A stretch of 64,000 bases of DNA, taken from positions 32,559-96,558 of the forward strand of contig JBAZNQ010000001.1 in the NCBI GenBank assembly GCA_041649135.1, written 5' to 3'. Shown here one piece after another: positions 9,807 to 59,862 of the stretch. The first letter of the stretch is position 1; the number at the start of each line of letters is the position of its first letter. The position numbers were made by a program, and so were the translations under genes. Under the pieces are notes generated by a model. It saw nothing but the letters and a program-made list of their open reading frames with translations. It did no database searches and was not told the origin of the DNA. Source of the stretch: Patescibacteria group bacterium. Its GTDB lineage: Bacteria; Patescibacteriota; Kazan-3B-28.

Positions 9807-11570
9807 ATGAGCAACCAAGAGCCCGAAATCCACGTCGTTAAGCGTCTAAAGTCGATCAAGACCACCCATACCGCTCTTTCGGCTATCAACGGCCTCCAGC
9901 GGTTCTTCGGCGATGCCATGCAATGGTTTGGTGGTTTGGCTCGCAAATTTAATTTCACCGAAAAAGCTGTTTTAGCTGTACTTATCACCATGATCGTCGG
10001 TGGTAGTGTTGGTTTGGCGCTTTCACGAGAAAATTCCAGCGAACTCCAACCGGCTACTGGTGGTGCCCATATCGAAGGCATGATTGGTCAGCCCCAATCC
10101 ATTAATCCACTTTTGGCTGGCACTAATTCCGTTGATCGCGATATCTCCCGCTTGGTTTATTCTGGCTTAACAAAAATCGGTGCTGGTCGGGAAGTCCTGC
10201 CAGACTTATCGACTGGCTGGGATGTTTTGGATAATGGCAAAACTTACATCTTCCAATTACAACCCAATGCCAAGTGGCATGACGGTCAGCCTTTTTCTGC
10301 CGATGACGTTGTATTTACTTTTAATGTTTTGCAGAACAACGACTATAACGGGGTCTTAAAAACTGATTTTACCGGCATACTGGTTGAAAAAGTTTCTGAT
10401 TTTGCAGTTAAGATCACATTGCCAATGTCTTCGGTTTTCTTTTTAACCGATGTCTCGTTTGGTATTATTCCCGCTCATATTTTCCAAGATATTCCCGTCA
10501 AAGATTTAGCGGCGAGTTACACCACTAGTAAAATTATCGGCACTGGGCCATACCAATATCAGAACTTCAAGGATGGCGCCCTCACCTTAAAACGTTTTGA
10601 AGACTATTACGGCACAAAGCCATATCTCGAAAGTATCGTTTTTTCTTTCTTTGATAACGCGGAAAATCTCTATGCCGCTTTGCGCAACCGTCAAGTTAGC
10701 GCCGCTGGCTTTACTGAACCAGTTTTTAGCGATACCTCATCATCAGACAACAAATACGAATTTGCGTTGCCGCAATATAAAGCGATTTTCTTTAATCAAT
10801 TAAGCGGTAATGCGTTGCTTCAAAATGCTACTATTCGCCAAGCTCTGGCCTATGCTACCAACAAACAGCAGATCATCGATGAAGTAGAACAAGGCTATGC
10901 CGTGCAAGTAGACTCACCAATTTTGCCGGGATTTTGGGGAAACAATCCGAATTTGAAAAAATATGAGTTTGATATCGCCAAAGCTGCCAGTTTATTAAAA
11001 CGCGATGGTTGGACAGATTCCGACAAAGACGGAATTTTAGATAAGAACAACGGCAAAACCCGCTTGAGTTTAAAAATTTCTTTCCGTGATGATGCGAAAT
11101 CTCGCCGGACTGCCGAATTAGTCCAACAGAATTGGAAATCGATCGGCGCAGAAGCCATTCTTTTGCCGTTGGATGCTACCACGTTGGTAAAAGACATTAT
11201 CCGGCCTCGGGCCTATGAAGTATTAATTTTTGGACAAGATTTAGGTGGCAACTCCGACCCGTATGTTTATTGGCACAGTAGTCAGATTACCGATCCGGGT
11301 CTAGCGCTCGCCCCGACTGTGGATAAGGACATTGATAACAATTTAGAACAAGCTCGGACGGCCGCTAGTTTGAGCAAAGCTATCCCGTACTATTTAAAGT
11401 TTCAGTCCGCCTTTGCGGATTTAGTTCCGGCTATTTTGCTTTATCAACCGAAATACACTTATCTGGCAGACAAAAAAGTCAAAGGCGTAACTGATAAAAT
11501 TAACTTGTCATCTACGGCTGATAGGTTTATAGATATCGGGAAGTGGTACGTTAAGTCCCATAGGGAATAA
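9807..11570 (+). CDS. ABC transporter substrate-binding protein, family 5 (peptide/nickel/oligopeptide-binding, OppA-like)
   Basis: 587 aa with an N-terminal TM anchor and an SBP_bac_5-like core (WHDGQPFSADDVVFTFN). Confidence 0.75.
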   Translation: MSNQEPEIHVVKRLKSIKTTHTALSAINGLQRFFGDAMQWFGGLARKFNFTEKAVLAVLITMIVGGSVGLALSRENSSELQPATGGAHIEGMIGQPQSINPLLAGTNSVDRDISRLVYSGLTKIGAGREVLPDLSTGWDVLDNGKTYIFQLQPNAKWHDGQPFSADDVVFTFNVLQNNDYNGVLKTDFTGILVEKVSDFAVKITLPMSSVFFLTDVSFGIIPAHIFQDIPVKDLAASYTTSKIIGTGPYQYQNFKDGALTLKRFEDYYGTKPYLESIVFSFFDNAENLYAALRNRQVSAAGFTEPVFSDTSSSDNKYEFALPQYKAIFFNQLSGNALLQNATIRQALAYATNKQQIIDEVEQGYAVQVDSPILPGFWGNNPNLKKYEFDIAKAASLLKRDGWTDSDKDGILDKNNGKTRLSLKISFRDDAKSRRTAELVQQNWKSIGAEAILLPLDATTLVKDIIRPRAYEVLIFGQDLGGNSDPYVYWHSSQITDPGLALAPTVDKDIDNNLEQARTAASLSKAIPYYLKFQSAFADLVPAILLYQPKYTYLADKKVKGVTDKINLSSTADRFIDIGKWYVKSHRE

Positions 11571-11601
11571 GAGAGAAGAGAGAAGAGAGAAGAGAGAAGA
11601 A
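11571..11601. repeat. Simple sequence repeat (GAGAGAA)n
   Basis: gagagaagagagaagagagaagagagaaga. Confidence 0.8.
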
Positions 11602-11733: not shown

Positions 11734-11820
11734 GGGCCGGTGGCGAAACTGGCATACGCGCAGCGTTAAGGGCGCTGTGGGGTAATACCCGTGGAGGTTC
11801 AACTCCTCTCCGGCCCACCA
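11734..11820 (+). tRNA. tRNA-Leu (class II, long variable arm). Anticodon loop TTAAGGG gives anticodon AAG (A34, unusual); CCA encoded.
   Basis: Acceptor GGGCCGG/CCGGCCC, anticodon stem cagcg/cgctg, T-arm gaggttcaactcctc. Confidence 0.75.
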
Positions 11821-11942
11821 TGAAACGGCTTCGCCGTAATATCCAATACCCAATATCCAATCAGAAAACAAAAAATCAAAAATCTCTTTAATCGAACATT
11901 GGACATTGGTGAATTGGACATTAACTACGAAGTAGTTTTTAA

Positions 11943-12019
11943 GGGCGCGTAGCTCAGCTGGTTAGAGCACTTGGTTTACATCCAAGGTGTCGGGGGTTCG
12001 AATCCCTCCACGCCCACCA
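11943..12019 (+). tRNA. tRNA-Val (TAC)
   Basis: Cloverleaf by eye; anticodon loop tttacat; T-loop ttcgaat; CCA encoded. Confidence 0.8.
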
Positions 12020-12193: not shown

Positions 12194-12268
12194 GCCGAGG
12201 TAGCTCAGTGGTAGAGCAGATGCCTGAAGAGCATCGTGTCGGGTGTTCGATCCACCCCCTCGGCACCA
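12194..12268 (+). tRNA. tRNA-Phe (GAA)
   Basis: gccgaggtagctcagtggtagagc...; anticodon loop ctgaaga; CCA encoded. Confidence 0.85.
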
Positions 12269-12269
12269 C

Positions 12270-12344
12270 GCGGGTGTCGTATAACGGCTATTACATTACC
12301 TTGCCAAGGTAGAGACGGGAGTTCGACTCTCCTCACCCGCTCCA
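12270..12344 (+). tRNA. tRNA-Gly (GCC)
   Basis: Acceptor gcgggtg/cacccgc; anticodon stem ttacc/ggtag, loop ttgccaa. Starts 1 nt after tRNA-Phe. Confidence 0.75.
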
Positions 12345-12482: not shown

Positions 12483-13481
12483 ATGAAGACGCATTCTCGC
12501 AAAACATCAAAAAAACATTTTTCTGGCTCAAAACACAAATTACTTATTTGGATTATAGTACTACTTATCGCGGGAGCGACTGGTTATATGTACTTGAATA
12601 AGAACACCAGCCCAAGTCACGCTGATGCAGATTTGAATTTATATGTTTCAACGCTAGGTAACGACAGCAATCCAGGTACTATCAAGCGTCCCCTGAGGAG
12701 TATTCATCAAGCGCTCGCTCTTAAAGGGGAGCTGTCGGCATCAGCATTAGCAATTAACATTGTCGGACCATCCTATTTGGTCGACAAAAAGGACTATGTA
12801 GCGGCCGGTTATCAGATCCCTAATCGCATTACTGAAGGCTCTGTGAGCATGGGCCCTTTGCAGAGTGCTGCTACTGTCATCTCGGGGCGACAAACGACTA
12901 TTTATGCCGAGAGTCCGGTCGAAAATATAAGCTTCTTCGTAGGCAATACCGGAACGTTAAAAATCGGTGGGTTACGATTCACGGTCGGTCTTGTCGCTCA
13001 AGCATCTGGTCGCGATGCGAGTATTCAAATTGCGGCCAATGATTTCAGTTTGGCGTGGGCACCCGATCACGCTGACGCAGATCTTGATCTTTCCTGTTCC
13101 AGTTCGTCTTATTGCCGTGCCACTAAAAATACATTTACCATCTTCAATGGTCCATTTGGAGACATGCTCGTAAATGCTCTTAATCTTAATTCGTATGGCT
13201 CGGCCAGTATTGATGCCGATTGGAACACATTTAAGTATCCTGCAACAGAAGATTGGCCTGATGAGTTGAACCCGCCGGGACCGGGTGGCTACCAAATAAG
13301 AGGCATTGTGTCCTGGGGCAGTAGTCCATCAAGAATTCTTGGTAATACTTTTGTAAGCGATAAATTCAACGGCAAGACTGGATTCTTGGGCTACGTGGGT
13401 ATTAGCTATTCACCGTCAGCCGTTGTGGGCAAGAATAGCTTTACGAAGTTTAGCGGTATACCTCTCGATAAGCGTAATTAA
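12483..13481 (+). CDS. Secreted right-handed beta-helix (pectin-lyase-fold, DUF1565-like) protein
   Basis: 332 aa with an N-terminal signal/TM. The YVSTLGNDSNPGTIKRPLRSIHQA motif is typical of parallel beta-helix proteins. HADADL(N/D)L is duplicated internally. Confidence 0.5.
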   Translation: MKTHSRKTSKKHFSGSKHKLLIWIIVLLIAGATGYMYLNKNTSPSHADADLNLYVSTLGNDSNPGTIKRPLRSIHQALALKGELSASALAINIVGPSYLVDKKDYVAAGYQIPNRITEGSVSMGPLQSAATVISGRQTTIYAESPVENISFFVGNTGTLKIGGLRFTVGLVAQASGRDASIQIAANDFSLAWAPDHADADLDLSCSSSSYCRATKNTFTIFNGPFGDMLVNALNLNSYGSASIDADWNTFKYPATEDWPDELNPPGPGGYQIRGIVSWGSSPSRILGNTFVSDKFNGKTGFLGYVGISYSPSAVVGKNSFTKFSGIPLDKRN

Positions 13482-13752: not shown

Positions 13753-13826
13753 GGCCAGATGGCCGAGCGGTTAGGCAGGGGTCTGCAAAACCCCGTACAG
13801 GAGTTCGACTCTCCTTCTGGCCTCCA
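13753..13826 (+). tRNA. tRNA-Cys (GCA)
   Basis: Acceptor ggccaga/tctggcc; anticodon loop ctgcaaa; T-arm aggagttcgactctcct. Confidence 0.8.
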
Positions 13827-14122
13827 GTCTTCGCTACCTTAACAGGTAGCTACGCCTGGCTGACGCCATTCTATTCTTAATGTGAGTGGCTAAGTCTGGT
13901 TGGAACTAATATAAAAACAAAAGCGAAGACTGTCCTGTGCAATCCTGCATAGCTCACAGAGCGACGCATGGGCGTAGTCCTGCATAGCTGTTAAGCGACG
14001 CACGGACGAAGCATGGACTTCCTCTAATTATTTCGCTGTAATATCCAATACCCAATCAGAAAACAAAAAATCAAAAATCTTTTTAATCGAACATTGGACA
14101 TTAACTACGAAGTAGTTTTCAT

Positions 14123-14206
14123 GGGCAGGTGGTGGAACGGTATACACGAAGGACTTAAAATCCTTTGCCGCAAGGCTTGAGGGTTCGAATCCCTCCCTGC
14201 CCACCA
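14123..14206 (+). tRNA. tRNA-Leu (TAA), class II
   Basis: Acceptor gggcagg/cctgccc; anticodon stem aagga/tcctt, loop cttaaaa; long variable arm. Confidence 0.8.
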
Positions 14207-14262
14207 ATAAACGGCTTCGCCGTAATACCCAATATCCAATTACCAATAAACAAAAAAATGAA

Positions 14263-14390
14263 CCGTCATTCCCGCGAAAGCGGGAATCCAGAAAAGAAAA
14301 TAAACAAAAAACTTTTTTCTGTTTTTGTCTGGATTCCCGATCCCTCCAGAGACGGGCAAGCGGGTCGGGAATGACGAAGGAACAGTTTGG
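14263..14390. repeat. MITE-like element with perfect 10-bp TIR GTCATTCCCG/CGGGAATGAC and nested inverted repeats
   Basis: gtcattcccgcgaaagcgggaatccag...ctggattccc...cgggaatgac. Confidence 0.65.
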
Positions 14391-14456: not shown

Positions 14457-14543
14457 GGGCACGTGGCGGAACTGGTATACGCGCAGCGTTCAGGTCGCTG
14501 TGGGAGCAATCCCGTGGAGGTTCAACTCCTCTCGTGCCCACCA
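14457..14543 (+). tRNA. tRNA-Leu (CAG), class II
   Basis: Acceptor gggcacg/cgtgccc; anticodon loop ttcaggt. Confidence 0.8.
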
Positions 14544-52182: not shown

Positions 52183-52256
52183 AGGGGCGTCGTTCAGTGG
52201 TAGGACGTGGGTCTCCAAAACCCAAGACGAGTGTCCGATTCACTCCGCCCCTGCCA
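52183..52256 (+). tRNA. tRNA-Trp (CCA). The T-loop reads UCCGAUU (C at position 55), which is non-canonical.
   Basis: Acceptor aggggcg/cgcccct; anticodon stem tgggt/accca, loop ctccaaa. Confidence 0.75.
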
Positions 52257-52299
52257 GCAAAATTATTCGCTTTCACAGTGGATTTTATTTTGATCCAAA

Positions 52300-52896
52300 G
52301 TGGAAGTTAGAACCGTAAGGCGATGTTATACTAAACTTGTGTATGATCAAGTTAAACAGTTTGTAGAAGAATCTTTTAGTGCTGGGGTTAATGAGAAGAG
52401 TATGAAGCACTTTGAGCAAACAGTTGCTTGGCTTAAACGTTTGAAACCCGATGCTGATGAGCCAATGTTAATTGCTGCCTATTCGCACGATATTGCCAGA
52501 GCATTGCGACAAGTAGATTCAAAAACCTTGTTTAAAAATAAAGAACTTAACGATCCCGAGGTGTTGAAAGAGCATCAAGAGCAGGGAGCCCAAATCATGG
52601 GAGAGTTTCTGAGGGATAATGATTACGACGAAGTGTCAGTCAAACGGGTAGAGAACATGATACGCCACCACGAAGAGGGTGGTGATGAGGAATCTAACCT
52701 TCTGATGGATGCTGACAGTCTGAGTTATTTGGAGGTTAATGCCAAAAAACATATTGGACTAATTGATGTTTGGGGAAAGGGAAAAGTTGAACGGAAAATT
52801 GATTGGATGTATAGCAGGATTTCTTCTGCTCGGGCTAAAGAATTTGCCCAGCCATATTACCAAGAAGTGAAGGACTTACTGAACAAGCATTTCTAA
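52300..52896 (+). CDS. HD-domain metal-dependent phosphohydrolase (cassette 1)
   Basis: H...HD motif (KHFEQT...LIAAYSHDIARAL). The stop TAA lies inside the att-like repeat core TTCTAAC. Confidence 0.6.
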   Translation: MEVRTVRRCYTKLVYDQVKQFVEESFSAGVNEKSMKHFEQTVAWLKRLKPDADEPMLIAAYSHDIARALRQVDSKTLFKNKELNDPEVLKEHQEQGAQIMGEFLRDNDYDEVSVKRVENMIRHHEEGGDEESNLLMDADSLSYLEVNAKKHIGLIDVWGKGKVERKIDWMYSRISSARAKEFAQPYYQEVKDLLNKHF

Positions 52897-52969
52897 CTTC
52901 CTCCACCACGGTCTGCCAGTTATTTTATTCGCTCCCAGAGCGGATTATTGTCGGTAGTATAATACAAAC

Positions 52970-53533
52970 ATGGAAAAGCTAACTTTTATTACTGGCAATC
53001 CAGCCAAGGCAAAATATCTCGGTGACTACTTTCATTTTCCAGTTGATCACCTCAAATTAGATTTGCCAGAGATTCAGTCTACGGATTTACAAACAATCGT
53101 TGAAGACAAGGTCAAACGAGCTTTTGCCATTACAAGTACGCCCGTAATAGTTGAGGATGTCTCTCTGATATTTCACGGGATGAAAGCACTCCCTGGTCCA
53201 CTCATTAAATGGTTTCTTGAAACTTTGGGGAATAACGGACTATGTAAATTGGTGGATGGTTTAAATAACCGCAAAGCAACAGCCAAAGTAATGTTCGCAA
53301 TTTGTGATGAGTCAGGTGTTCATACCTTTGCTGGTTCAATGGAAGGCTCTATCTCCGAGTTGCCAAGAGGGGAGATGGGTTTTGGCTGGGATCCGATTTT
53401 TATACCCGACGGTTATGACAAAACTTGGGCGGAAATGACCGATGACGAAAAACACGCTGTCTCCATGCGGAAACAAGCGTTGGAGCAAATGTCAGAGTTC
53501 TTGTCCAAACAAAACGTAATGGTTAATGGATAA
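52970..53533 (+). CDS. Non-canonical purine NTP pyrophosphatase (Ham1/RdgB/ITPase family) (cassette 2)
   Basis: MEKLTFITGNPAKAKYL...GFGWDPIF. Confidence 0.75.
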   Translation: MEKLTFITGNPAKAKYLGDYFHFPVDHLKLDLPEIQSTDLQTIVEDKVKRAFAITSTPVIVEDVSLIFHGMKALPGPLIKWFLETLGNNGLCKLVDGLNNRKATAKVMFAICDESGVHTFAGSMEGSISELPRGEMGFGWDPIFIPDGYDKTWAEMTDDEKHAVSMRKQALEQMSEFLSKQNVMVNG

Positions 53534-54020
53534 TCAGCATCCTCAAAAACAATTTATGGAAGCCGCTATAGCAGAGGCAACCGAAGCTCGCGATAACGGT
53601 GATTATGCCATCGGAGCGATTATTGTTCATGATGGTCAAGTTATTTCCAGAGCCACCAACCGATCTAAGGTCGACCAAGACGCAACCCAGCACGCCGAGA
53701 TAGTCGCAATTCGTCAGGCGTCGCAAATGCTCGGGTCTCGCTATTTGGAGGAGTGCATTTTGTACACTACCCACGAACCCTGCCCTATGTGTGCTGCCGC
53801 TGTTGTTTGGGCAAAAATGAGAGGTGTTGTATCGGGGGCTCGCATGGAAGACATGACGGACTATCGCATCAAGAATGGCAACGATGAATGGAAATGGCGG
53901 ACTATCAGCATTCCTGCCCGAGAGGTGTTAGCAAAAGGGGAACCAAAGGTTATGCTAATAGAGGAGTTTATGCGGGATGAGTGTAGGCAGCTGTTTCACG
54001 GTGCCGAATCAAATTCCTAA
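53526..54020 (+). CDS. CDA-fold zinc deaminase, TadA-like (tRNA adenosine or nucleoside deaminase) (cassette 2; overlaps the Ham1 gene by 8 nt)
   Basis: HAEIVAIRQA...THEPCPMCAAAVVWAKMRGVVSGA. Confidence 0.7.
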   Translation: MDNQHPQKQFMEAAIAEATEARDNGDYAIGAIIVHDGQVISRATNRSKVDQDATQHAEIVAIRQASQMLGSRYLEECILYTTHEPCPMCAAAVVWAKMRGVVSGARMEDMTDYRIKNGNDEWKWRTISIPAREVLAKGEPKVMLIEEFMRDECRQLFHGAESNS

Positions 54021-54074
54021 CTTCCTCCGCCACGGTTTCTGCCAACCGCTTATACTCTCTACAGATAAAAGATT

Positions 54075-54626
54075 ATGAAAAACGACATTAGACCCATATA
54101 TAGTGAGTTGCGAGGATATCTTAGTGTCGCTCCACTCGCAGATGGATACTTGTTTGGCAGCGAAGCTAATAGATTTAGTCATCAACTAAACGTCACCATC
54201 GATGAATTAAACGAGGCTACCAAGAGCAACTATGACAAATTTAAAGTGGTACTTGAACATGACAGCGGTAGCCCAGCCCTTATGATTAGTGATTACCGCA
54301 ATAGGTTGAGCGGTCTGATCTATAAGATCCAAGGAGAATATTTTGCAGATGAACAGCAGTCGGGAAGTGGGCCCAGTACTATTATTAATGCCAACCAAAG
54401 TCAGGCTCAAAGCCAACAGCAAAGCCTTATAGTCGACTTGGTTTTCTTTGTTGCTGAGAAAAAAGCGGAGTATCAGGATGGAACACCTGAGAAGACATTC
54501 CTAGATAAGTTTGGGGATGCGCTCAAAACGGCCAAGGGAGTTCAGGATATAATTCAGCTTATCTTCACTATAGCGAGTCAGGTTGGCCTTCAGTTGGAAC
54601 AGCTTAAGAACTTATTTGGGGGATAA
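54075..54626 (+). CDS. Hypothetical protein (cassette 3)
   Basis: 183-aa ORF with no recognisable motif. Confidence 0.4.
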   Translation: MKNDIRPIYSELRGYLSVAPLADGYLFGSEANRFSHQLNVTIDELNEATKSNYDKFKVVLEHDSGSPALMISDYRNRLSGLIYKIQGEYFADEQQSGSGPSTIINANQSQAQSQQQSLIVDLVFFVAEKKAEYQDGTPEKTFLDKFGDALKTAKGVQDIIQLIFTIASQVGLQLEQLKNLFGG

Positions 54627-54632
54627 TACGTA

Positions 54633-54974
54633 ATGGAAATTACCTACGAAGATTTTGAAAAAGTAGATATCCGACTTGGTCGGGTTATTGATGCTCAAGA
54701 TTATCCAGAAGCCAAAAAGCCTGCTTTCAAGTTGAAGATAGACTTTGGCCCAGAGATTGGCATCAAGAGTTCCAGCGTTCAAGCTGTCGGTGCTCACACT
54801 AAAGAAGAACTTAATGGCATGCTGGTTTGTTGTGTAGTTAATTTCCCACCTAAGCGAATTGGCGATTTCACATCCGAAGTACTGACTCTTGGTTTTAAGA
54901 ACGCTGACGGTATCGGCTGGGTACTGATTACTCCAGCCAAGCAGTCGGTTAATATCGGAGATAAACTTCAATAA
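54633..54974 (+). CDS. tRNA-binding domain protein (CsaA/Trbp111/EMAP-like OB fold) (cassette 3)
   Basis: DIRLGRVIDAQDYPEAKKPAFKLKIDFGPEIG... Confidence 0.65.
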   Translation: MEITYEDFEKVDIRLGRVIDAQDYPEAKKPAFKLKIDFGPEIGIKSSSVQAVGAHTKEELNGMLVCCVVNFPPKRIGDFTSEVLTLGFKNADGIGWVLITPAKQSVNIGDKLQ

Positions 54975-54975
54975 T

Positions 54976-55710
54976 ATGAATAAAATTGCATTAGTAACGG
55001 GCTCGTCTAAAGGTATTGGTATGGCAATTGCCATAGAACTATCATCCAGGGGATTTGATGTAATCATCAATAATAGTCACGAAAATGCTGAAGGCCAAGC
55101 CGTCGTTGATGAAATTAACCAACACGGTGGCAGAGCTGTCTATATGCCAGCCGATGTCTCTAATATTAATGATGTTATTAAACTCAAAACCGAAATCGAA
55201 GAACAGTTTGGACACCTAGACGTTCTTATCAATAATGCTGGAATCGTCAGAAAGGAATATCCAGGCCAAGCTAACTGGGAGGATTGGGATAGGGTGTTTG
55301 CTGTAAATGTGAGAGGTATGGCTCAATGTATCTATGAACTATCTCCAGTCATGCCCGAGGGTTCAGCGATAGTGAACATTGTATCTGTGTGGGGGCTTGA
55401 GCTCCCTGCATATGACGCCAACGCTTACGCTGCTTCTAAGGCAGCCGTAGTTAGTCTCACCAAGACCCTCGCTCTCCAGTTGGCTCCTAAGATTAGAGTC
55501 AATGCAGTAGCTCCTAGCGTCGTGGCAATTGAACAACCCCACGAAACTAATCCAGATACCGTTAAATGGGTGCAGGACAATATGCCCCTTGGACGCAAAG
55601 CCACACCTCAAGAGATTGCTAAATTAGTGGCTTTTTTGGTGTCAGATGATGCTAGCTTTATTATCGGTGATTGTATAAAAATTGACGGTGGATTAACTTT
55701 GAAGATCTAG
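54976..55710 (+). CDS. Short-chain dehydrogenase/reductase (FabG-like SDR) (cassette 3)
   Basis: TGSSKGIG Rossmann motif, NNAG, catalytic YAASK. Confidence 0.8.
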   Translation: MNKIALVTGSSKGIGMAIAIELSSRGFDVIINNSHENAEGQAVVDEINQHGGRAVYMPADVSNINDVIKLKTEIEEQFGHLDVLINNAGIVRKEYPGQANWEDWDRVFAVNVRGMAQCIYELSPVMPEGSAIVNIVSVWGLELPAYDANAYAASKAAVVSLTKTLALQLAPKIRVNAVAPSVVAIEQPHETNPDTVKWVQDNMPLGRKATPQEIAKLVAFLVSDDASFIIGDCIKIDGGLTLKI

Positions 55711-55875
55711 CTAACACACTGAGGCAATTGTTGCAGAATGACAGTTCTAACTTCCTCCACCACGGTCTGCCAGATAAATTATCCGCTATGACAGCGAATA
55801 TTTTTGTGTGGGCAACGCGTAGTTAGAACTTTGCCCAAGAAAAAAGCTCATTATTTACAGTCGCGAGCGAACGAC

Positions 55876-56841
55876 TTACCACCGCTTATAGAGAGCCCCC
55901 GTCTTTTGCAACAGCCAGAATGCTAACATTCCAGTCGCAAGAAAGAACGCTACTCCACCGAAGGTGGTGTTGAGCAATGGATGGGGATGAAACCACCATG
56001 TCATTACTGCGAGCAACAACCAGACATCGAACATGTGCTTTGATGTGCGGTGTTCATAGTCCATGTTCGAGTTCCAGAATCGAGCAGCTCCATGCACTAC
56101 GCCTCTAGTCATGCCCCATCCAAAAAACAAGAACAGTGGTAACAACATGTATGTCTCGTGCCATCTAGCCGAAAGCCACATGCCTATCACTGTTGGCCAC
56201 GGCATCAAGCAGGCAATCCAACATACGGCTCGAAACGCCTGAGGCTCGCCAACCAGTAGTGGCAGAGTACGCTTATTACCGTTTCTATCGGCTTCCATGT
56301 CTTCGATGTCCTTTAGCGTTTCGCGTATGACCAATGCCATTACAACGCTCAGGAATACACCTAACACTAGGGGCTTCGAAGAGCCTGCGACAGGGAACAG
56401 CATGAGTACTGGGCTGGAGGCTGTCACGGCTACCAGAACATTGTTGACTGGATACCAAGGTCGGATCCAGTTGTACAACCATATCCCTACACCGATTTGC
56501 GACAGCAAGAGGGATGACTGCCAAATGGCTAAACCTTGATTGTCTGAACGATGTAGAAACAACCAGCTGACAGCAATCACCACCAGAACACACCACTGTA
56601 TGACGGCAAGTTGGTATAGTTTGGCATGTTCGAGGTCGGTCATTTCTCGGCTTTTACCCCGATCCTCATTGCGGTCAAATAAATCGTTCCAGAGCATAGT
56701 CGCTCCACAAATCCATGCCTGAATAATGGCCAAGACCACAATTCCGACACCAAACTTGTAAAGCTGGACAGACATTCCGACCAACAGCCCTGCCGCTAGT
56801 AAGCTGACAGGCACTCTGTATCGTAAAAGTACATTCCGCAT
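55876..56841 (-). CDS. UbiA-family prenyltransferase, membrane (cassette 4, reverse orientation)
   Basis: NDLFDRNED (NDxxDxxxD), multiple TM segments. A strong SD aaggaggtg lies upstream on the minus strand. Confidence 0.65.
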   Translation of the reverse strand: MRNVLLRYRVPVSLLAAGLLVGMSVQLYKFGVGIVVLAIIQAWICGATMLWNDLFDRNEDRGKSREMTDLEHAKLYQLAVIQWCVLVVIAVSWLFLHRSDNQGLAIWQSSLLLSQIGVGIWLYNWIRPWYPVNNVLVAVTASSPVLMLFPVAGSSKPLVLGVFLSVVMALVIRETLKDIEDMEADRNGNKRTLPLLVGEPQAFRAVCWIACLMPWPTVIGMWLSARWHETYMLLPLFLFFGWGMTRGVVHGAARFWNSNMDYEHRTSKHMFDVWLLLAVMTWWFHPHPLLNTTFGGVAFFLATGMLAFWLLQKTGALYKRW

Positions 56842-56922
56842 TATTCACCTCCTTTACTGTATTTGCGGATGTTTCATTATATGGGCCGACGAGTAGATTA
56901 GTCCACAGGGATCGGTCAAGGG

Positions 56923-56951
56923 TTGACGCAACCCAGTTATCGTCCAATAAT
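56923..56951 (+). promoter_or_regulatory. Candidate sigma70 promoter TTGACG-17 nt-AATAAT for the 56985 gene
   Basis: Spacing and hexamers visible; SD aaaggagg before the ATG. Confidence 0.35.
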
Positions 56952-56984
56952 ACAGCCATTCAGTGACAACCAAAGGAGGTCAAA

Positions 56985-57377
56985 ATGTCGCTGTCACGCA
57001 CCTTGGCGGTCTTAGTGTATATTGCTCATCACCTCTGGGTCGGGGCAGCCATGCTGGCGTCCCTCACTTGGTTGGTGGATCACTTCAACTTGGTCTGGAT
57101 TAGTCCCCAGATTGTCAGCTTTGCGACTCGTTGGATGGCAAGTAGCATGGTGGTAATGATCATTGGTCCAGTGTTGTGTTGGGATGGGACATCTCACTAT
57201 CACTGTGCCCCACTATATTTACGCAGAGCCATTCAGGTCGCGTCTGGTGACAAAGTTGGGGGACTGTTTACCCCTCTTTTCAGCCATATACTTCCGTGGT
57301 CGGATGTCCACATAGCCTTAGCACTTAACCTATTCTTGTTAGGGGTGTGGCTCAGACTATTGTTGATAGAGCACTAA
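56985..57377 (+). CDS. Small membrane protein, hypothetical (cassette 4); followed by a terminator at 57398-57430
   Basis: 130 aa; 4 hydrophobic segments. Confidence 0.45.
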   Translation: MSLSRTLAVLVYIAHHLWVGAAMLASLTWLVDHFNLVWISPQIVSFATRWMASSMVVMIIGPVLCWDGTSHYHCAPLYLRRAIQVASGDKVGGLFTPLFSHILPWSDVHIALALNLFLLGVWLRLLLIEH

Positions 57378-57640
57378 GATGCAATTGTATTCGTCGCTTA
57401 CGGCCCCCATCTGGGGGCCTATCATTTTAATTTAATGGTAAACTTACAGGTATAGGACTGGTGGATTGGGTTAAAGCCGTTCTAACTTCCTCTACCAAGG
57501 TCTGCCAATAAAATTAACCGCTTTCATAACGGATTTTATTTTCAGCCACAGTAGAAGTTAGAACTTGAAGGTGTTACAATATCCCCATCAAACTAGAGGG
57601 GGCTAGCGCTCCTTCAAACCTCAACAAAGGAGGGTGGGCT

Positions 57641-58756
57641 ATGTACCACCACATCGAAAACGAACACTGCCCTATGTCGCACGGGTTTTGTTACCGCGAT
57701 GGAGTGCTGTATGTCACAGTTTTGGAAGCCTATCTTCCAGAACTACTAGAACGGCTACCTCAAGCGGTGGCCAATCTAGTATGCCGTCATCAGGACAAGC
57801 AACGGCTGGGAGAGTTCGGTGGGCTAGACGACTTAAATGGCTATCTCACGGAACCCGTCGGTGGCTATTGCGGTTTTGGCAGATTTGGCGAATCTCTGGC
57901 ATTCTTTCCATCTCCAGAATCTGGCTGGATTGAATTTCGCTACACTATACCAGGTAGTTATGAACAGGCTGTTCCTGGAATGGCGTCGCTGAACTTTTTG
58001 CTGTTCGTGCTGGCCTGGCTCACCAAGCCAGACGGTATTGCCTCGCCTCGAGGCAATCAGCTCGTAATCCGCGAGGGTGGTTCGTATAGCGTCGCGAAAG
58101 AGGTAGGCGATTGGCTTTGGTCGCAACCCATCGTCAATCTTCCCATCGCCCAAGCCATCGCTGAAGTCTATGCGTCTCTACATAGCCAGCTAACTCCCGA
58201 AGAGATTCACCTTGGCCTAGTTAGACCATCTGCCACAGACGTATTGTCTAAGCCTGGCGGTGCAACTGCCAATATCTACGGGCGGTCCATTCATCTTAAC
58301 TACCCTGGCGGTGCTGCCACTGGGCTAGATGCCGAGATGGCTCGCGAGAATCGGGGCTACCGCGTAGTGCCTCACAATGTTGATGTGCCCGCCCAAGATC
58401 TCGGGCTGTTGGTGGGGATGGCGAAGCTTCACGAACTGGTTGAAGCCGGTATCGATTCACAATGGATGAAGTACTACAGCATGTTCGCCACTCAAACCTT
58501 CGTTGAGCCTAACCCCGAAGAAATACCCATCAATCATCCCACCGAGGCTGGTGTCTACGAAGTCCGAGGCGAAGAGTACCTCACGATTGAGGTGTACCAA
58601 CACCCCGTTCTCGGACTTAGCGTCTGGTGCGAGGATGCCGATCGCGGAGTAAATGCGGATACCGAAGACGATGTAGCTGGCCATATCCGAGCCGATATGG
58701 CGGGCATCAACTTCGTGCGACGGCTACGCCCCCTGCAGTCAGGAGGACAAAACTAG
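57641..58756 (+). CDS. Hypothetical 371-aa protein, GC-rich (cassette 5), paralogous to 58996-59862
   Basis: SD aaggaggg. The C-terminal block VPHNVDVPAQDLGLLVGMAKLHELVEAG is shared with the next cassette. A terminator follows. Confidence 0.55.
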   Translation: MYHHIENEHCPMSHGFCYRDGVLYVTVLEAYLPELLERLPQAVANLVCRHQDKQRLGEFGGLDDLNGYLTEPVGGYCGFGRFGESLAFFPSPESGWIEFRYTIPGSYEQAVPGMASLNFLLFVLAWLTKPDGIASPRGNQLVIREGGSYSVAKEVGDWLWSQPIVNLPIAQAIAEVYASLHSQLTPEEIHLGLVRPSATDVLSKPGGATANIYGRSIHLNYPGGAATGLDAEMARENRGYRVVPHNVDVPAQDLGLLVGMAKLHELVEAGIDSQWMKYYSMFATQTFVEPNPEEIPINHPTEAGVYEVRGEEYLTIEVYQHPVLGLSVWCEDADRGVNADTEDDVAGHIRADMAGINFVRRLRPLQSGGQN

Positions 58757-58995
58757 AACCTACGGTCAGAATGCGACTGACTACCATCGGATGGCGAACC
58801 TACGGGTTCGCCTCCTTTAATTTAATGTTAAACTTACAGATATAGGGCAGGTGGACTGGATAAGAATTCTTCTAACTTCCTCCACCAAGGTCTGCCAATA
58901 AAATTAACCGCTTTCATAACGGATTTTATTTTCAGCCACAGTAGAAGTTAGAACTTGAAGGTGTTACAATATCCCCATCAAACTAGAGGGGGCTA

Positions 58996-59862
58996 GTGCT
59001 CCTTCAAACTCTGGAGTCTAACCACATGACAGATGATAATCTGAGCCTTTTTCACATCAGTCGTCAAAATTGCCCAGCGAATTATCGTCTGGCAATCGTG
59101 GACCCTAGGGTCATCACCGTGCTAGTCCACCGTAGCGTTTGGGAGTCGTTCTGCGAAGACACCAATCGTCGACATAATCCATTGTCACCCATGATAGGCG
59201 GCAATAATATCTTGGGCGAGGAAGTACCATTTATCGCCCCAGGAAGTATCAACGCGCCGTTTGGATATCATGACGGCGTGACGAGGATAGCCTCCGAGGA
59301 TCCACAGTGGGAAACCCTTTGTATTAAGCTGCCAATCGAGAAGAGTGCGAGTGGCGGGAAGGGTAACCACATGTTGGCTTTGGCCAACACTAGAGCAGTA
59401 CTGGTGTCCTTGATGGGGTCTCATTCGACCGCCCAAGAACCCCAGCTGTTGGCCATCTGGCAGATGTCGCTGTGGAACCCAGATTGCAGCATCGGCTGCA
59501 GGATGTCTCAAGCAATTGTTGCCTGGCTTACGGCTTTGACTGTAGAGCAAAGGGCCCGAATTGAAGCTGAAGTCTCGTTAGCGATGCGGACTGCTTTCAC
59601 AGTGATTCGCGACGGTGTCGTTTCACCGATCAGCAAGTCTGCTAGTGGTAAGGTCGGTATGCATCTATCTCATGGGGACAGTATATATTTGTACTGCTAT
59701 GGGACTAATTCTGGCTCTTTGGGCGCAGAATCCATCTCCAAGGCGATGTGTGGCGATCTCTTGCCACACAATATGGATAGCCCATACCAAGCGCTAGTCA
59801 CTGTCGCGGGGTTAGCCAAGCTGTACGAGATTGCCCGTGTGGCACTCTACCCATCAGAGTAG
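58996..59862 (+). CDS. Hypothetical 288-aa protein, GC-rich (cassette 6), paralog of 57641-58756
   Basis: Shared block LPHNMDSPYQALVTVAGLAKLYEIARVA. Terminator at 59883-59915. Confidence 0.5.
   Translation: MLLQTLESNHMTDDNLSLFHISRQNCPANYRLAIVDPRVITVLVHRSVWESFCEDTNRRHNPLSPMIGGNNILGEEVPFIAPGSINAPFGYHDGVTRIASEDPQWETLCIKLPIEKSASGGKGNHMLALANTRAVLVSLMGSHSTAQEPQLLAIWQMSLWNPDCSIGCRMSQAIVAWLTALTVEQRARIEAEVSLAMRTAFTVIRDGVVSPISKSASGKVGMHLSHGDSIYLYCYGTNSGSLGAESISKAMCGDLLPHNMDSPYQALVTVAGLAKLYEIARVALYPSE

What the first reader, a model, noticed from the sequence alone, without database searches (positions are those of the whole stretch)
11734..11820. tRNA-Leu with apparent A34 anticodon (AAG), next to a cassette-borne TadA-like deaminase
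By canonical numbering the anticodon loop TTAAGGG, closed by a perfect cagcg/cgctg stem, gives anticodon AAG. The paralogous tRNA-Leu at 14457 has TTCAGGT (CAG) in the identical scaffold. A34 tRNAs other than tRNA-Arg(ACG) are rare in bacteria and require A-to-I editing by a TadA with relaxed specificity. The window also encodes a TadA-like CDA-fold deaminase (53526-54020, HAE…PCxxC), co-transcribed with a Ham1 ITPase on a mobile cassette.
Basis: partly seen in the sequence, partly recalled or inferred. Interest (0 to 1): 0.55.

Follow-up and report, generated by a model that had tools for sequence, protein, structure and literature searches.

The report
Conserved A34 leucine tRNA in CPR bacteria
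A leucine tRNA gene with the rare anticodon AAG is real, functional and conserved across a lineage of ultra-small bacteria (candidate division Kazan), the same kind of tRNA already known from lactic acid bacteria, but the nearby "TadA-like" deaminase shows no sign of being the enzyme that edits it.

Summary
ARAGORN and the Rfam tRNA model both place a type II tRNA-Leu with anticodon AAG at 11734-11820. It is not a one-off mutation. Ten further independent assemblies carry tRNA-Leu(AAG), nine at the head of the same array (Leu-AAG, Val, Phe, Gly, Cys, Leu-UAA, Leu-CAG) and one (L142) in a rearranged array. Five of the ten were found by synteny alone, blind to the anticodon, including two named candidate division Kazan genomes. 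Across the 11 copies the cloverleaf is 100% paired, with 7 doubly compensated pairs, while U33-A34-A35-G36-G37 never changes.

The most likely mechanism (inferred, not shown) is A34-to-I34 deamination, so that the tRNA reads CUU, CUC and CUA, as shown experimentally for tRNA-Leu(AAG) in Streptococcus and Oenococcus. That makes this a new lineage of a known kind.

It scores 85 bits on NCBI's TadA model (cutoff 150), the same as B. subtilis guanine deaminase. It lacks the TadA C-terminal half, has 56-62% identical homologues on DPANN-labelled contigs, one shown to be archaeal, and sits in a different neighbourhood in every relative. The "mobile cassette" idea is partly right: attC-like repeats punctuate the region, but no integrase is present. 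Whether a canonical tadA or a Leu(GAG) gene exists elsewhere in the genome could not be checked.

The parts
11734..11820 (+). tRNA-Leu(AAG), a type II tRNA with encoded CCA, discriminator A73 and G37
   Evidence: ARAGORN. Rfam RF00005 at 44.2 bits, full length. Across 11 orthologues the cloverleaf is 100% paired with 7 doubly compensated pairs.
11766..11772 (+). Anticodon loop U32-U33-A34-A35-G36-G37-G38; the anticodon AAG is at 11768-11770
   Evidence: ARAGORN puts the anticodon at gene position 35. Positions 33-37 are invariant in all 11 orthologues, and position 38 is G in 10 and A in one. The loop matches the S. pyogenes TadA consensus YUAMGRA at 6 of 7 positions.
11943..12019 (+). tRNA-Val(UAC), second member of the conserved array
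12194..12268 (+). tRNA-Phe(GAA), array member
12270..12344 (+). tRNA-Gly(GCC), array member
13753..13826 (+). tRNA-Cys(GCA), array member
14123..14206 (+). tRNA-Leu(UAA), array member; reads UUA/UUG
14457..14543 (+). tRNA-Leu(CAG), a close paralogue of the AAG tRNA (85% identical in the window); reads CUG
53526..54020 (+). CDA-fold deaminase from a distinct subfamily of the TadA/guanine-deaminase clade. Examined as the candidate A34 deaminase and judged unlikely to be one.
52970..53533 (+). Ham1/RdgB ITP/XTP pyrophosphatase; its stop overlaps the deaminase start by 8 nt
   Evidence: Pfam Ham1p_like at 142 bits; NCBIfam; ORF coordinates

Best explanation
Positions 11734-11820 encode a functional, expressed-type leucine tRNA whose gene carries A at wobble position 34. 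It is a fixed, vertically inherited trait of a CPR lineage, candidate division Kazan-3B-28 and close relatives. There it heads a conserved array of seven tRNA genes that also holds Leu(UAA) and Leu(CAG). Because LeuRS does not read the anticodon, the tRNA is charged with leucine.

The most likely working form has A34 deaminated to inosine by a tRNA adenosine deaminase that tolerates A35, encoded outside this window. tRNA-Leu(IAG) would then read CUU and CUC, and less well CUA. Leu(CAG) would read CUG and Leu(UAA) would read UUA/UUG.

Shown: the gene, its cloverleaf, its conservation and covariation, and its native origin. Inferred: I34 formation, the codons read, and the identity and location of the deaminase.
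For: Two independent tRNA callers agree on AAG.

Ten further assemblies carry tRNA-Leu(AAG), nine of them at the head of the same seven-tRNA array and one (L142) in a rearranged array on the other strand. Five came from a pattern that left position 34 free. Five came from anticodon-blind synteny through the M48 peptidase at 73, 65, 60, 59 and 56% identity, including Kazan RIFCSPHIGHO2_01_FULL_44_14 and _49_10. Flanking proteins are only 45-92% identical, with M48 at 61-78% and SBP5 at 64-72%.

All 23 helix pairs are paired in 100% of cells. Seven pairs have compensatory double changes, three of them in the anticodon stem, and 0 of 500 shuffles reach the observed covariation score. U33-A34-A35-G36-G37 is invariant.

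The same anticodon-arm scaffold carries G34 (Leu-GAG) in 116 of 120 other bacterial genomes, so AAG is one substitution from a GAG-type tRNA. The AAG tRNA is 76-91% identical to the Leu(CAG) paralogue of its own genome, so it is native and not imported.

The loop UUAAGGG fits the YUAMGRA consensus of the one characterised TadA that edits Leu(AAG) at 6 of 7 positions, and Kazan 44_14 fits at 7 of 7.

CUU is not preferred over CUC or CUA in any of six lineages. Examples: 78 CUU against 80 CUC in the window's rpo, ribosomal-protein and EF genes, and 9 CUU, 19 CUC and 24 CUA in Kazan 49_10. CGU, CGC and CGA are all common, which is what an Arg(ICG)/TadA system would give.

Precedent: tRNA-Leu(AAG) is fully converted to I34 by TadA in S. 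pyogenes, S. mutans and O. oeni (PMC11472039, PMC13249217).
Against: No canonical tadA, tRNA-Arg(ACG), Leu(GAG) or Leu(UAG) could be looked for, because only about 300 kb of CPR sequence was accessible and none of these was found in it. The codon-usage argument is weak if other CUN-reading tRNAs exist elsewhere in the genome. Position 38 is G in 10 of 11 copies, not the A of the streptococcal consensus. Reduced genomes such as the Mollicutes have lost TadA and use unmodified A34 (PMC3711424), and this lineage is also reduced. There is no RNA-level evidence.
Confidence: 0.55

Rival explanations
1. A34 stays unmodified. The tRNA reads CUU by Watson-Crick pairing and the other CUN codons by relaxed pairing, as tRNA-Thr(AGU) does in Mycoplasma, in a reduced genome that may have lost TadA.
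For: The lineage has a very small genome, with contigs of 0.5-0.7 Mb. No protein in the window or the fetched loci passes the TadA model. Mollicutes show that life without TadA is possible (PMC3711424). A preprint reports that A34 variants of four-codon-box tRNAs can be neutral or beneficial in E. coli (10.64898/2026.05.15.725136).
Against: CUC is used as often as CUU, even in highly expressed genes and in the GC-richer relative, and A:C wobble is weak. The loop matches the editing consensus of a Leu(AAG)-competent TadA. Strict conservation of A34 in place of the usual U34 four-way reader is hard to explain without modification. Every bacterial Leu(AAG) tested so far is I34. Frequent CGU, CGC and CGA codons suggest an ICG tRNA and hence a TadA.
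Confidence: 0.22
2. One reading: the CDA-fold deaminase at 53526-54020 is itself the A34 deaminase, a divergent TadA with relaxed specificity, perhaps helped by the CsaA/Trbp111-like tRNA-binding protein encoded two genes downstream (54633-54974).
Against: It scores 85.4 bits against a cutoff of 150, and only residues 3-107 align. B. subtilis guanine deaminase scores the same (86.2 bits), whereas S. aureus and E. coli TadA score 171 and 335 bits over their full length. The region after the PCxxC motif lacks the TadA motifs GAxDxKxGxxGS, NH and FFxxxR, as seen by reading the sequence against the TadA sequences used. Homologues 56-62% identical occur on DPANN-labelled contigs, and one contig carries topoisomerase VI A and B; archaea have no A34 tRNAs. 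Fold and profile comparisons tie TadA with guanosine and guanine deaminases. The gene's neighbourhood differs in each relative, and only the window pairs it with Ham1 or CsaA. No Kazan-labelled protein appears among the 120 best homologues, although Kazan proteins are named in the same database.
Confidence: 0.15
3. The gene is a decaying or non-functional tRNA copy, or an assembly or sequencing error at position 34.
For: It has the lowest Rfam score of the eight tRNAs (44.2 bits), and position 13 is A instead of G.
Against: Eleven independent assemblies agree. The cloverleaf is 100% paired with compensatory changes, and the loop is invariant.
Confidence: 0.02

Closest known systems
tRNA-Leu(AAG -> IAG) of Lactobacillales (Streptococcus, Lactobacillus, Lactococcus, Oenococcus/Leuconostoc)
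   Same: Both are gene-encoded A34 in a type II leucine tRNA that is one substitution from a GAG-type scaffold. Both are fixed across a whole lineage. G36-G37 follows the anticodon, and the loop fits YUAMGR(A).
   Different: The host is a CPR lineage (candidate division Kazan-3B-28), far from Bacilli, where one survey places almost all known cases (PMC13249217). Here the gene heads a conserved seven-tRNA array together with the only other Leu tRNAs seen. Position 38 is usually G, not A. I34 formation, loss of Leu(GAG) and the responsible TadA are all unverified here.
tRNA-Arg(ACG -> ICG) with TadA, the universal bacterial A34 system
   Same: The same wobble chemistry is expected, with a U33-A34-N35-G36 context in a 7-nt loop closed by a 5-bp stem.
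   Different: Position 35 is A, not C, and position 37 is G, not A. E. coli-type TadA does not accept that loop (PMC11472039). The tRNA is a different amino-acid acceptor and has a long variable arm.
Unmodified A34 tRNAs of reduced genomes (Mycoplasma tRNA-Thr(AGU))
   Same: Both are A34 tRNAs for a four-codon box in a very small bacterial genome.
   Different: There, A34 is known to remain unmodified and to read all four codons. Here a separate Leu(CAG) is kept and codon use shows no U-ending preference, which favours I34.
Eukaryotic tRNA-Leu(IAG) edited by ADAT2/ADAT3
   Same: The anticodon and the likely decoding pattern are the same.
   Different: The eukaryotic enzyme is a heterodimer that needs the whole tRNA. 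Nothing comparable was identified here.
CDA-fold guanine and guanosine deaminases (B. subtilis GuaD 1WKQ, Arabidopsis GSDA 7DBF) and TadA (2B3J), as comparators for the window's deaminase
   Different: The conserved C-terminal 55 residues (W124, R125, FMRxEC, ending in LFH) match no solved protein. Both the TadA RNA-contact motifs and the GuaD GFDD motif and C-terminal Tyr are absent.

Membership tests
Bacterial I34-type tRNA-Leu(AAG), as in Lactobacillales | Gene-encoded A34-A35-G36 in a leucine-type (type II, A73) tRNA with an intact cloverleaf | tested here: met
Bacterial I34-type tRNA-Leu(AAG), as in Lactobacillales | Fixed across a lineage rather than a sporadic mutation | tested here: met
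   11 of 11 related assemblies, 5 of them chosen blind to the anticodon
Bacterial I34-type tRNA-Leu(AAG), as in Lactobacillales | Anticodon loop compatible with a Leu-competent TadA (YUAMGRA at positions 32-38) | tested here: inconclusive
   UUAAGGG matches 6 of 7 positions, and Kazan 44_14 (UUAAGGA) matches 7 of 7. The consensus comes from a single species.
Bacterial I34-type tRNA-Leu(AAG), as in Lactobacillales | Replaces tRNA-Leu(GAG): the two are mutually exclusive within a genome | not testable with these tools
   Only 64 kb of the genome and about 20 kb of each relative were accessible. No Leu(GAG) was seen in them.
Bacterial I34-type tRNA-Leu(AAG), as in Lactobacillales | A34 is converted to inosine in the mature tRNA | not testable with these tools
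   This needs RNA data. Codon usage is compatible with it.
TadA (tRNA adenosine-34 deaminase), for ORF 53526-54020 | CDA fold with HAE and PCxxC zinc-binding motifs | tested here: met
TadA (tRNA adenosine-34 deaminase), for ORF 53526-54020 | Full-length match to the NCBIfam equivalog NF008113 above its cutoff of 150 bits | tested here: not met
   85.4 bits over residues 3-107 only. Calibrators: E. coli TadA 335, S. aureus TadA 171, B. subtilis guanine deaminase 86.
TadA (tRNA adenosine-34 deaminase), for ORF 53526-54020 | TadA-specific C-terminal half (GAxDxKxGxxGS loop, NH motif, basic FFxxxR helix) | tested here: not met
   No alignment runs beyond about residue 107-110 with any TadA. Read directly, the family alignment shows different conserved residues.
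TadA (tRNA adenosine-34 deaminase), for ORF 53526-54020 | Occurs only in organisms that have A34 tRNAs; vertically inherited core gene | tested here: not met
   Homologues 56-62% identical occur on DPANN-labelled contigs, one shown to be archaeal. The context differs in every relative.
TadA (tRNA adenosine-34 deaminase), for ORF 53526-54020 | Deaminates A34 of an anticodon stem-loop | not testable with these tools
   Needs a biochemical assay
CDA-type guanine deaminase (GuaD), for ORF 53526-54020 | GFDD substrate loop and a C-terminal tail Tyr that closes the active site | tested here: not met
   The aligned segment reads NGNDEW, and the family ends in LFH(S). The core similarity is as good as for TadA.
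Integron-type gene cassette, for the Ham1-deaminase unit | Unit bounded by imperfect-palindrome recombination sites with complementary R''/R' cores | tested here: inconclusive
   Five direct copies are present. Three fold as long hairpins with TTCTAAC/GTTAGAA ends (z from -3.3 to -6.6). The two flanking Ham1-deaminase are half-elements with z near 0.
Integron-type gene cassette, for the Ham1-deaminase unit | An integron integrase or other site-specific recombinase next to the array | tested here: not met
   No recombinase domain in any ORF between 52 and 63 kb, even at relaxed thresholds

The most novel reading that the evidence does not exclude
The Kazan-3B-28 lineage may have collapsed leucine decoding to the three tRNAs of this array (IAG, CAG, UAA), with no Leu(GAG) or Leu(UAG). 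That would make wobble inosine essential for CUC and CUA, a eukaryote-like strategy that arose independently in an ultra-small bacterium. The A34 deaminase would then be either an unrecognised relaxed-specificity TadA or the non-canonical CDA-fold family that this lineage shares with DPANN archaea.
Probability: 0.12. Interest if true: 0.75.

Novelty: new member of a known kind. Interest (0 to 1): 0.45.

Why it matters
Non-arginine A34 tRNAs are almost absent from bacteria. The only well-studied case, Leu(AAG) in Lactobacillales, is being used to ask why inosine decoding expanded in eukaryotes. A second, phylogenetically remote and apparently unreported lineage with the same tRNA is an independent natural replicate. 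It allows tests of three questions: whether the G34-to-A34 switch always goes with loss of Leu(GAG), whether it goes with TadA adaptation at position 35, and whether it equalises CUU and CUC use. This lineage also has a genome of about 0.7 Mb, where economy in tRNA genes could be the driver. The work also corrects an attractive but unsupported link to a neighbouring deaminase, which belongs to an uncharacterised subfamily shared by CPR bacteria and DPANN archaea.

Tried and rejected
2. L033 (Saccharibacteria) and L141 (Magasanikbacteria) were tried as outgroups. They are not syntenic and gave no information.
4. The listing of cluster members gave no organism names for the unnamed NCBI homologues.
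5. I searched for a canonical TadA and other A34 tRNAs in all fetched CPR loci and found none, but coverage is far too small to conclude absence.
6. I searched for an integrase in the repeat array with Pfam at E <= 1 and with PHROGs and found none.
7. The upstream regions of the AAG tRNA are not conserved among relatives, and promoter-like hits do not exceed chance.
8. A neighbour-joining tree of the AAG and CAG paralogues is intermingled because the sequences are short and acceptor stems co-vary within genomes. It cannot say whether AAG arose from a GAG or a CAG gene.
9. The dCMP-deaminase-like ORF inside the array of L140 was considered as a TadA candidate and rejected: it is ComEB-like.
10. 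Literature searches combining CPR or Patescibacteria with A34, inosine or TadA found nothing relevant.

Full report
**Observation**

ARAGORN finds eight tRNA genes in the window, and the one at 11734-11820 (+) is tRNA-Leu with anticodon AAG. The Rfam tRNA covariance model aligns 11734-11817 end to end at 44.2 bits (gathering score 29), with UUAAGGG in the anticodon-loop columns. The whole-window gathering scan had omitted it only because of the speed filters. The gene has U8, A14, G18-G19, a 5-bp anticodon stem CAGCG/CGCUG, U33, G37, a long variable arm, a TΨC-type loop, discriminator A73 and an encoded CCA. The Leu(CAG) gene at 14457-14543 has the same anticodon stem and is 85% identical overall.

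**Where it lies**

- The window is part of a 420 kb metagenome contig (ENA ERZ27247363 k141_2225525). The same organism is in NCBI as a "Patescibacteria group bacterium" MAG with a 521 kb contig.
- The window carries rpoB, rpoC, rpsL, rpsG, fusA, the large ribosomal-protein operons, secY, rpoA, secE and nusG. It is therefore core chromosome.
- The tRNA heads an array of seven: Leu(AAG), Val(UAC), Phe(GAA), Gly(GCC), Cys(GCA), Leu(UAA), Leu(CAG). The array lies between an SBP_bac_5 gene and a LysM-DUF218-LemA-M48-hypothetical-rpoB block.

**Is A34 a fixed trait?**

A metagenome scan used a pattern that left position 34 free. It returned ten contigs:
- Five carry Leu(AAG) at the head of the same array.
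- Five are unrelated Leu(CAG) genes.
- None is GAG.

The flanking proteins of the syntenic contigs are 45-92% identical to the window's, for example M48 at 61-78% and SBP5 at 64-72%. To avoid any bias from the tRNA sequence, I then took homologues of the syntenic M48 peptidase at 73, 65, 60, 59 and 56% identity and fetched their contigs. All five have Leu(AAG) in the array. Two are named genomes of candidate division Kazan-3B-28: RIFCSPHIGHO2_01_FULL_44_14 and _49_10. In the most distant one (L142) the array is rearranged onto the other strand, and the AAG gene is still there.

On the alignment of the 11 copies:
- All 23 helix pairs are standard pairs in 100% of cells.
- Seven pairs carry compensatory changes on both sides, three in the acceptor stem, one in the D stem and three in the anticodon stem.
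- None of 500 shuffles reaches the observed covariation score, and slid registers drop to 40-69% paired.
- Positions 33-37 (U-A-A-G-G) never vary.

This is the signature of a functional tRNA under selection with A34 maintained.

**Origin**

- The same anticodon-arm scaffold is overwhelmingly a Leu(GAG) scaffold elsewhere. Of 120 genomes retrieved from GTDB, 116 have G34, 3 have C34, 1 has U34 and none has A34. Eight of the G34 genes also have G38, like the window.
- The AAG tRNA is 76-91% identical to the Leu(CAG) paralogue of its own genome, with acceptor stems that co-vary within genomes. It is therefore native to the lineage and not imported from Bacilli.
- A short-sequence tree cannot say whether it arose from a GAG or a CAG gene.

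**How it most likely works**

LeuRS does not use the anticodon (PMC11028032 abstract), so the tRNA is charged with leucine. In every bacterium where tRNA-Leu(AAG) has been examined, A34 is fully converted to inosine by TadA. This holds for S. pyogenes in vivo and in vitro (PMC11472039). It also holds for S. mutans and S. pneumoniae TadA (PMC13249217) and for O. oeni (cited in both). E. coli TadA does not accept Leu(AAG). The streptococcal enzyme recognises YUAMGRA at positions 32-38.

- The Kazan-clade loop is UUAAGGG, which fits at 6 of 7 positions. The Kazan 44_14 loop, UUAAGGA, fits at 7 of 7.
- Codon usage does not favour CUU. In the window the fractions are CUU 0.13, CUC 0.11, CUA 0.09 and CUG 0.16.
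- In the rpo, ribosomal-protein and EF genes there are 78 CUU against 80 CUC.
- In the conserved genes of five relatives CUC and CUA equal or exceed CUU, for example 9, 19 and 24 in the GC-richer Kazan 49_10.
- CGU, CGC and CGA are all common, as expected if an Arg(ICG) tRNA and a TadA are present.

I therefore favour I34, reading CUU, CUC and CUA, with Leu(CAG) for CUG and Leu(UAA) for UUA/UUG. These steps are inferred. No RNA-level data exist, and I could not inspect the rest of the genome for tadA, Arg(ACG), Leu(GAG) or Leu(UAG). The main rival is an unmodified A34, as in Mollicutes that lost TadA (PMC3711424).

**The deaminase at 53526-54020**

It is a CDA-fold protein with HAE and PCPMC motifs, and its start overlaps the stop of a Ham1 ITPase gene by 8 nt. 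Several lines of evidence argue against a TadA role.

Scores against NCBI's TadA equivalog model (cutoff 150 bits):

| Protein | Bits | Extent of match |
|---|---|---|
| E. coli TadA | 335 | full length |
| S. aureus TadA | 171 | full length |
| B. subtilis guanine deaminase | 86.2 | core only |
| Window deaminase | 85.4 | residues 3-107 only |
| Archaeal homologues | 71-90 | core only |

The first 135 residues of GuaD and the first ~106 residues of S. aureus TadA agree with the PDB alignments printed.

- Single-sequence and family-profile searches of PDB tie TadA (105-107 bits) with guanine deaminase (103 bits), and every alignment stops near residue 103-110.
- The family has its own strongly conserved C-terminal part (D109, W124, R125, FMRxEC, and an end at LFH). 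It lacks the TadA loop and helix motifs.
- Homologues 56-62% identical occur on contigs labelled Woesearchaeota and Nanoarchaeota. The Woesearchaeota contig also encodes topoisomerase VI A and B. Archaea have no A34 tRNAs.
- The gene's neighbours differ in each of the five relatives examined, and only the window has Ham1 or CsaA beside it.

I conclude that it belongs to an uncharacterised subfamily of the TadA/guanine-deaminase clade. It is most likely a base or nucleoside deaminase of nucleotide salvage or sanitation, which would fit the coupling to Ham1 here. That assignment is an inference. A tRNA role is not excluded, and I give it about 0.15.

**The "mobile cassette"**

- A ~110-nt element occurs five times in direct orientation at 52891, 54015, 55745, 57480 and 58870, and nowhere else in the window. 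None is expected by chance.
- It has a left arm (G)TTCTAACTTCC and a right arm GGAAGTTAGAAC that are inverted repeats. Their cores, TTCTAAC and GTTAGAA, resemble the integron attC R''/R' boxes; that comparison is from my own knowledge.
- Between the arms lie a segment resembling the 3' end of tRNA-Trp (…CTGCCA) and a hairpin.
- tRNA-Trp (52183-52256) is itself followed by the right half of the element.
- Three copies fold as long imperfect hairpins on both strands, with z from -3.3 to -6.6. The two copies that flank Ham1-deaminase lack the right arm and do not fold, with z near 0.
- No recombinase is detectable.

The deaminase thus lies in a repeat-punctuated, possibly once-mobile region downstream of a tRNA gene. 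An active cassette is not shown.

**Comparison with what is known, and novelty**

Bacterial tRNA-Leu(AAG) is an established though rare feature. In GtRNAdb almost all cases are in class Bacilli, where it replaces Leu(GAG) (PMC13249217; bioRxiv 10.64898/2026.05.15.725136). I found no paper that connects A34 tRNAs, inosine or TadA with CPR/Patescibacteria. The present case is therefore a new member of a known kind. It is an independent, lineage-wide occurrence in candidate division Kazan-3B-28, in genomes of roughly 0.5-0.7 Mb. Its array holds all three Leu tRNAs seen, which with I34 would suffice to read all six leucine codons. Whether they are the only Leu tRNAs is the most interesting open point.

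**Verdict**

The tRNA finding is real and of moderate interest, and the proposed deaminase partner is probably wrong. Interest 0.45.

Noticed in passing
window 52251-58956: A ~110-nt attC-like element is repeated five times in direct orientation downstream of tRNA-Trp, at 52891, 54015, 55745, 57480 and 58870. It has inverted arms (G)TTCTAACTTCC and GGAAGTTAGAAC, a tRNA-Trp-3'-end-like CTGCCA segment and a hairpin. The tRNA-Trp gene itself is followed by the right half of the element. The copies delimit units of 1.1-1.7 kb holding 1-3 genes. No integrase was found.
   Followed up: partly
window 57641-58756 and 58996-59862: Two paralogous ORFs of unknown function (371 and 288 aa) share a C-terminal ...PHNxDxPxQxL...AGLAKLxE motif. 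They sit in and just after the last repeat-bounded unit, in the GC-richest stretch of the window (0.52 against about 0.44). They have no Pfam or PHROGs match.
   Followed up: partly
window 11835-11942 and 14038-14122 (also 14211-14245): A ~100-nt spacer module is duplicated in front of tRNA-Val and tRNA-Leu(UAA): ...taatatccaatacccaat..cagaaaacaaaaaatcaaaaatct..aatcgaacattggacattaactacgaagtagtttt. The hairpin aaacggcttcgccgt follows both Leu(AAG) and Leu(UAA). The module is not conserved in relatives.
   Followed up: partly
window 12483-13481; L137 6194-7480; L138 7423-7896; L139 7072-7539; L140 5915-7472: The spacers of the conserved tRNA array are insertion hot spots, with different cargo in each relative. 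The window has a 332-aa hypothetical. L137 has a dCTP deaminase/dUTPase plus an AAA kinase. L138 has an HNH protein, and L139 a NUDIX protein. L140 has a GIY-YIG protein, a kinase and a dCMP deaminase. Much of the cargo is nucleotide metabolism.
   Followed up: no
window 14265-14377: A long imperfect palindrome lies between tRNA-Leu(UAA) and tRNA-Leu(CAG): gtcattcccgcgaaagcgggaatcc ... ggattcccgatccc...gggtcgggaatgac. It attracts only weak, sub-threshold Rfam hits.
   Followed up: no
window 11570-11600: A GAGAA-type microsatellite, (gagaa/gagag)n, lies immediately after the stop codon of the SBP_bac_5 gene and upstream of the tRNA array.
   Followed up: no
window 53526-54020 and loci L133, L135: The deaminase belongs to a compact family of about 150-165 aa with its own conserved C-terminus. 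The family is shared at 55-75% identity between Patescibacteria and DPANN archaea, which suggests cross-domain transfer of an uncharacterised nucleobase or nucleoside deaminase.
   Followed up: partly
window 54633-54974: A CsaA/Trbp111-type tRNA-binding-domain protein (NCBIfam 129 bits) is encoded in the repeat-bounded unit next to the deaminase, together with an unknown 183-aa protein and an SDR. The linkage is seen only in this organism.
   Followed up: partly
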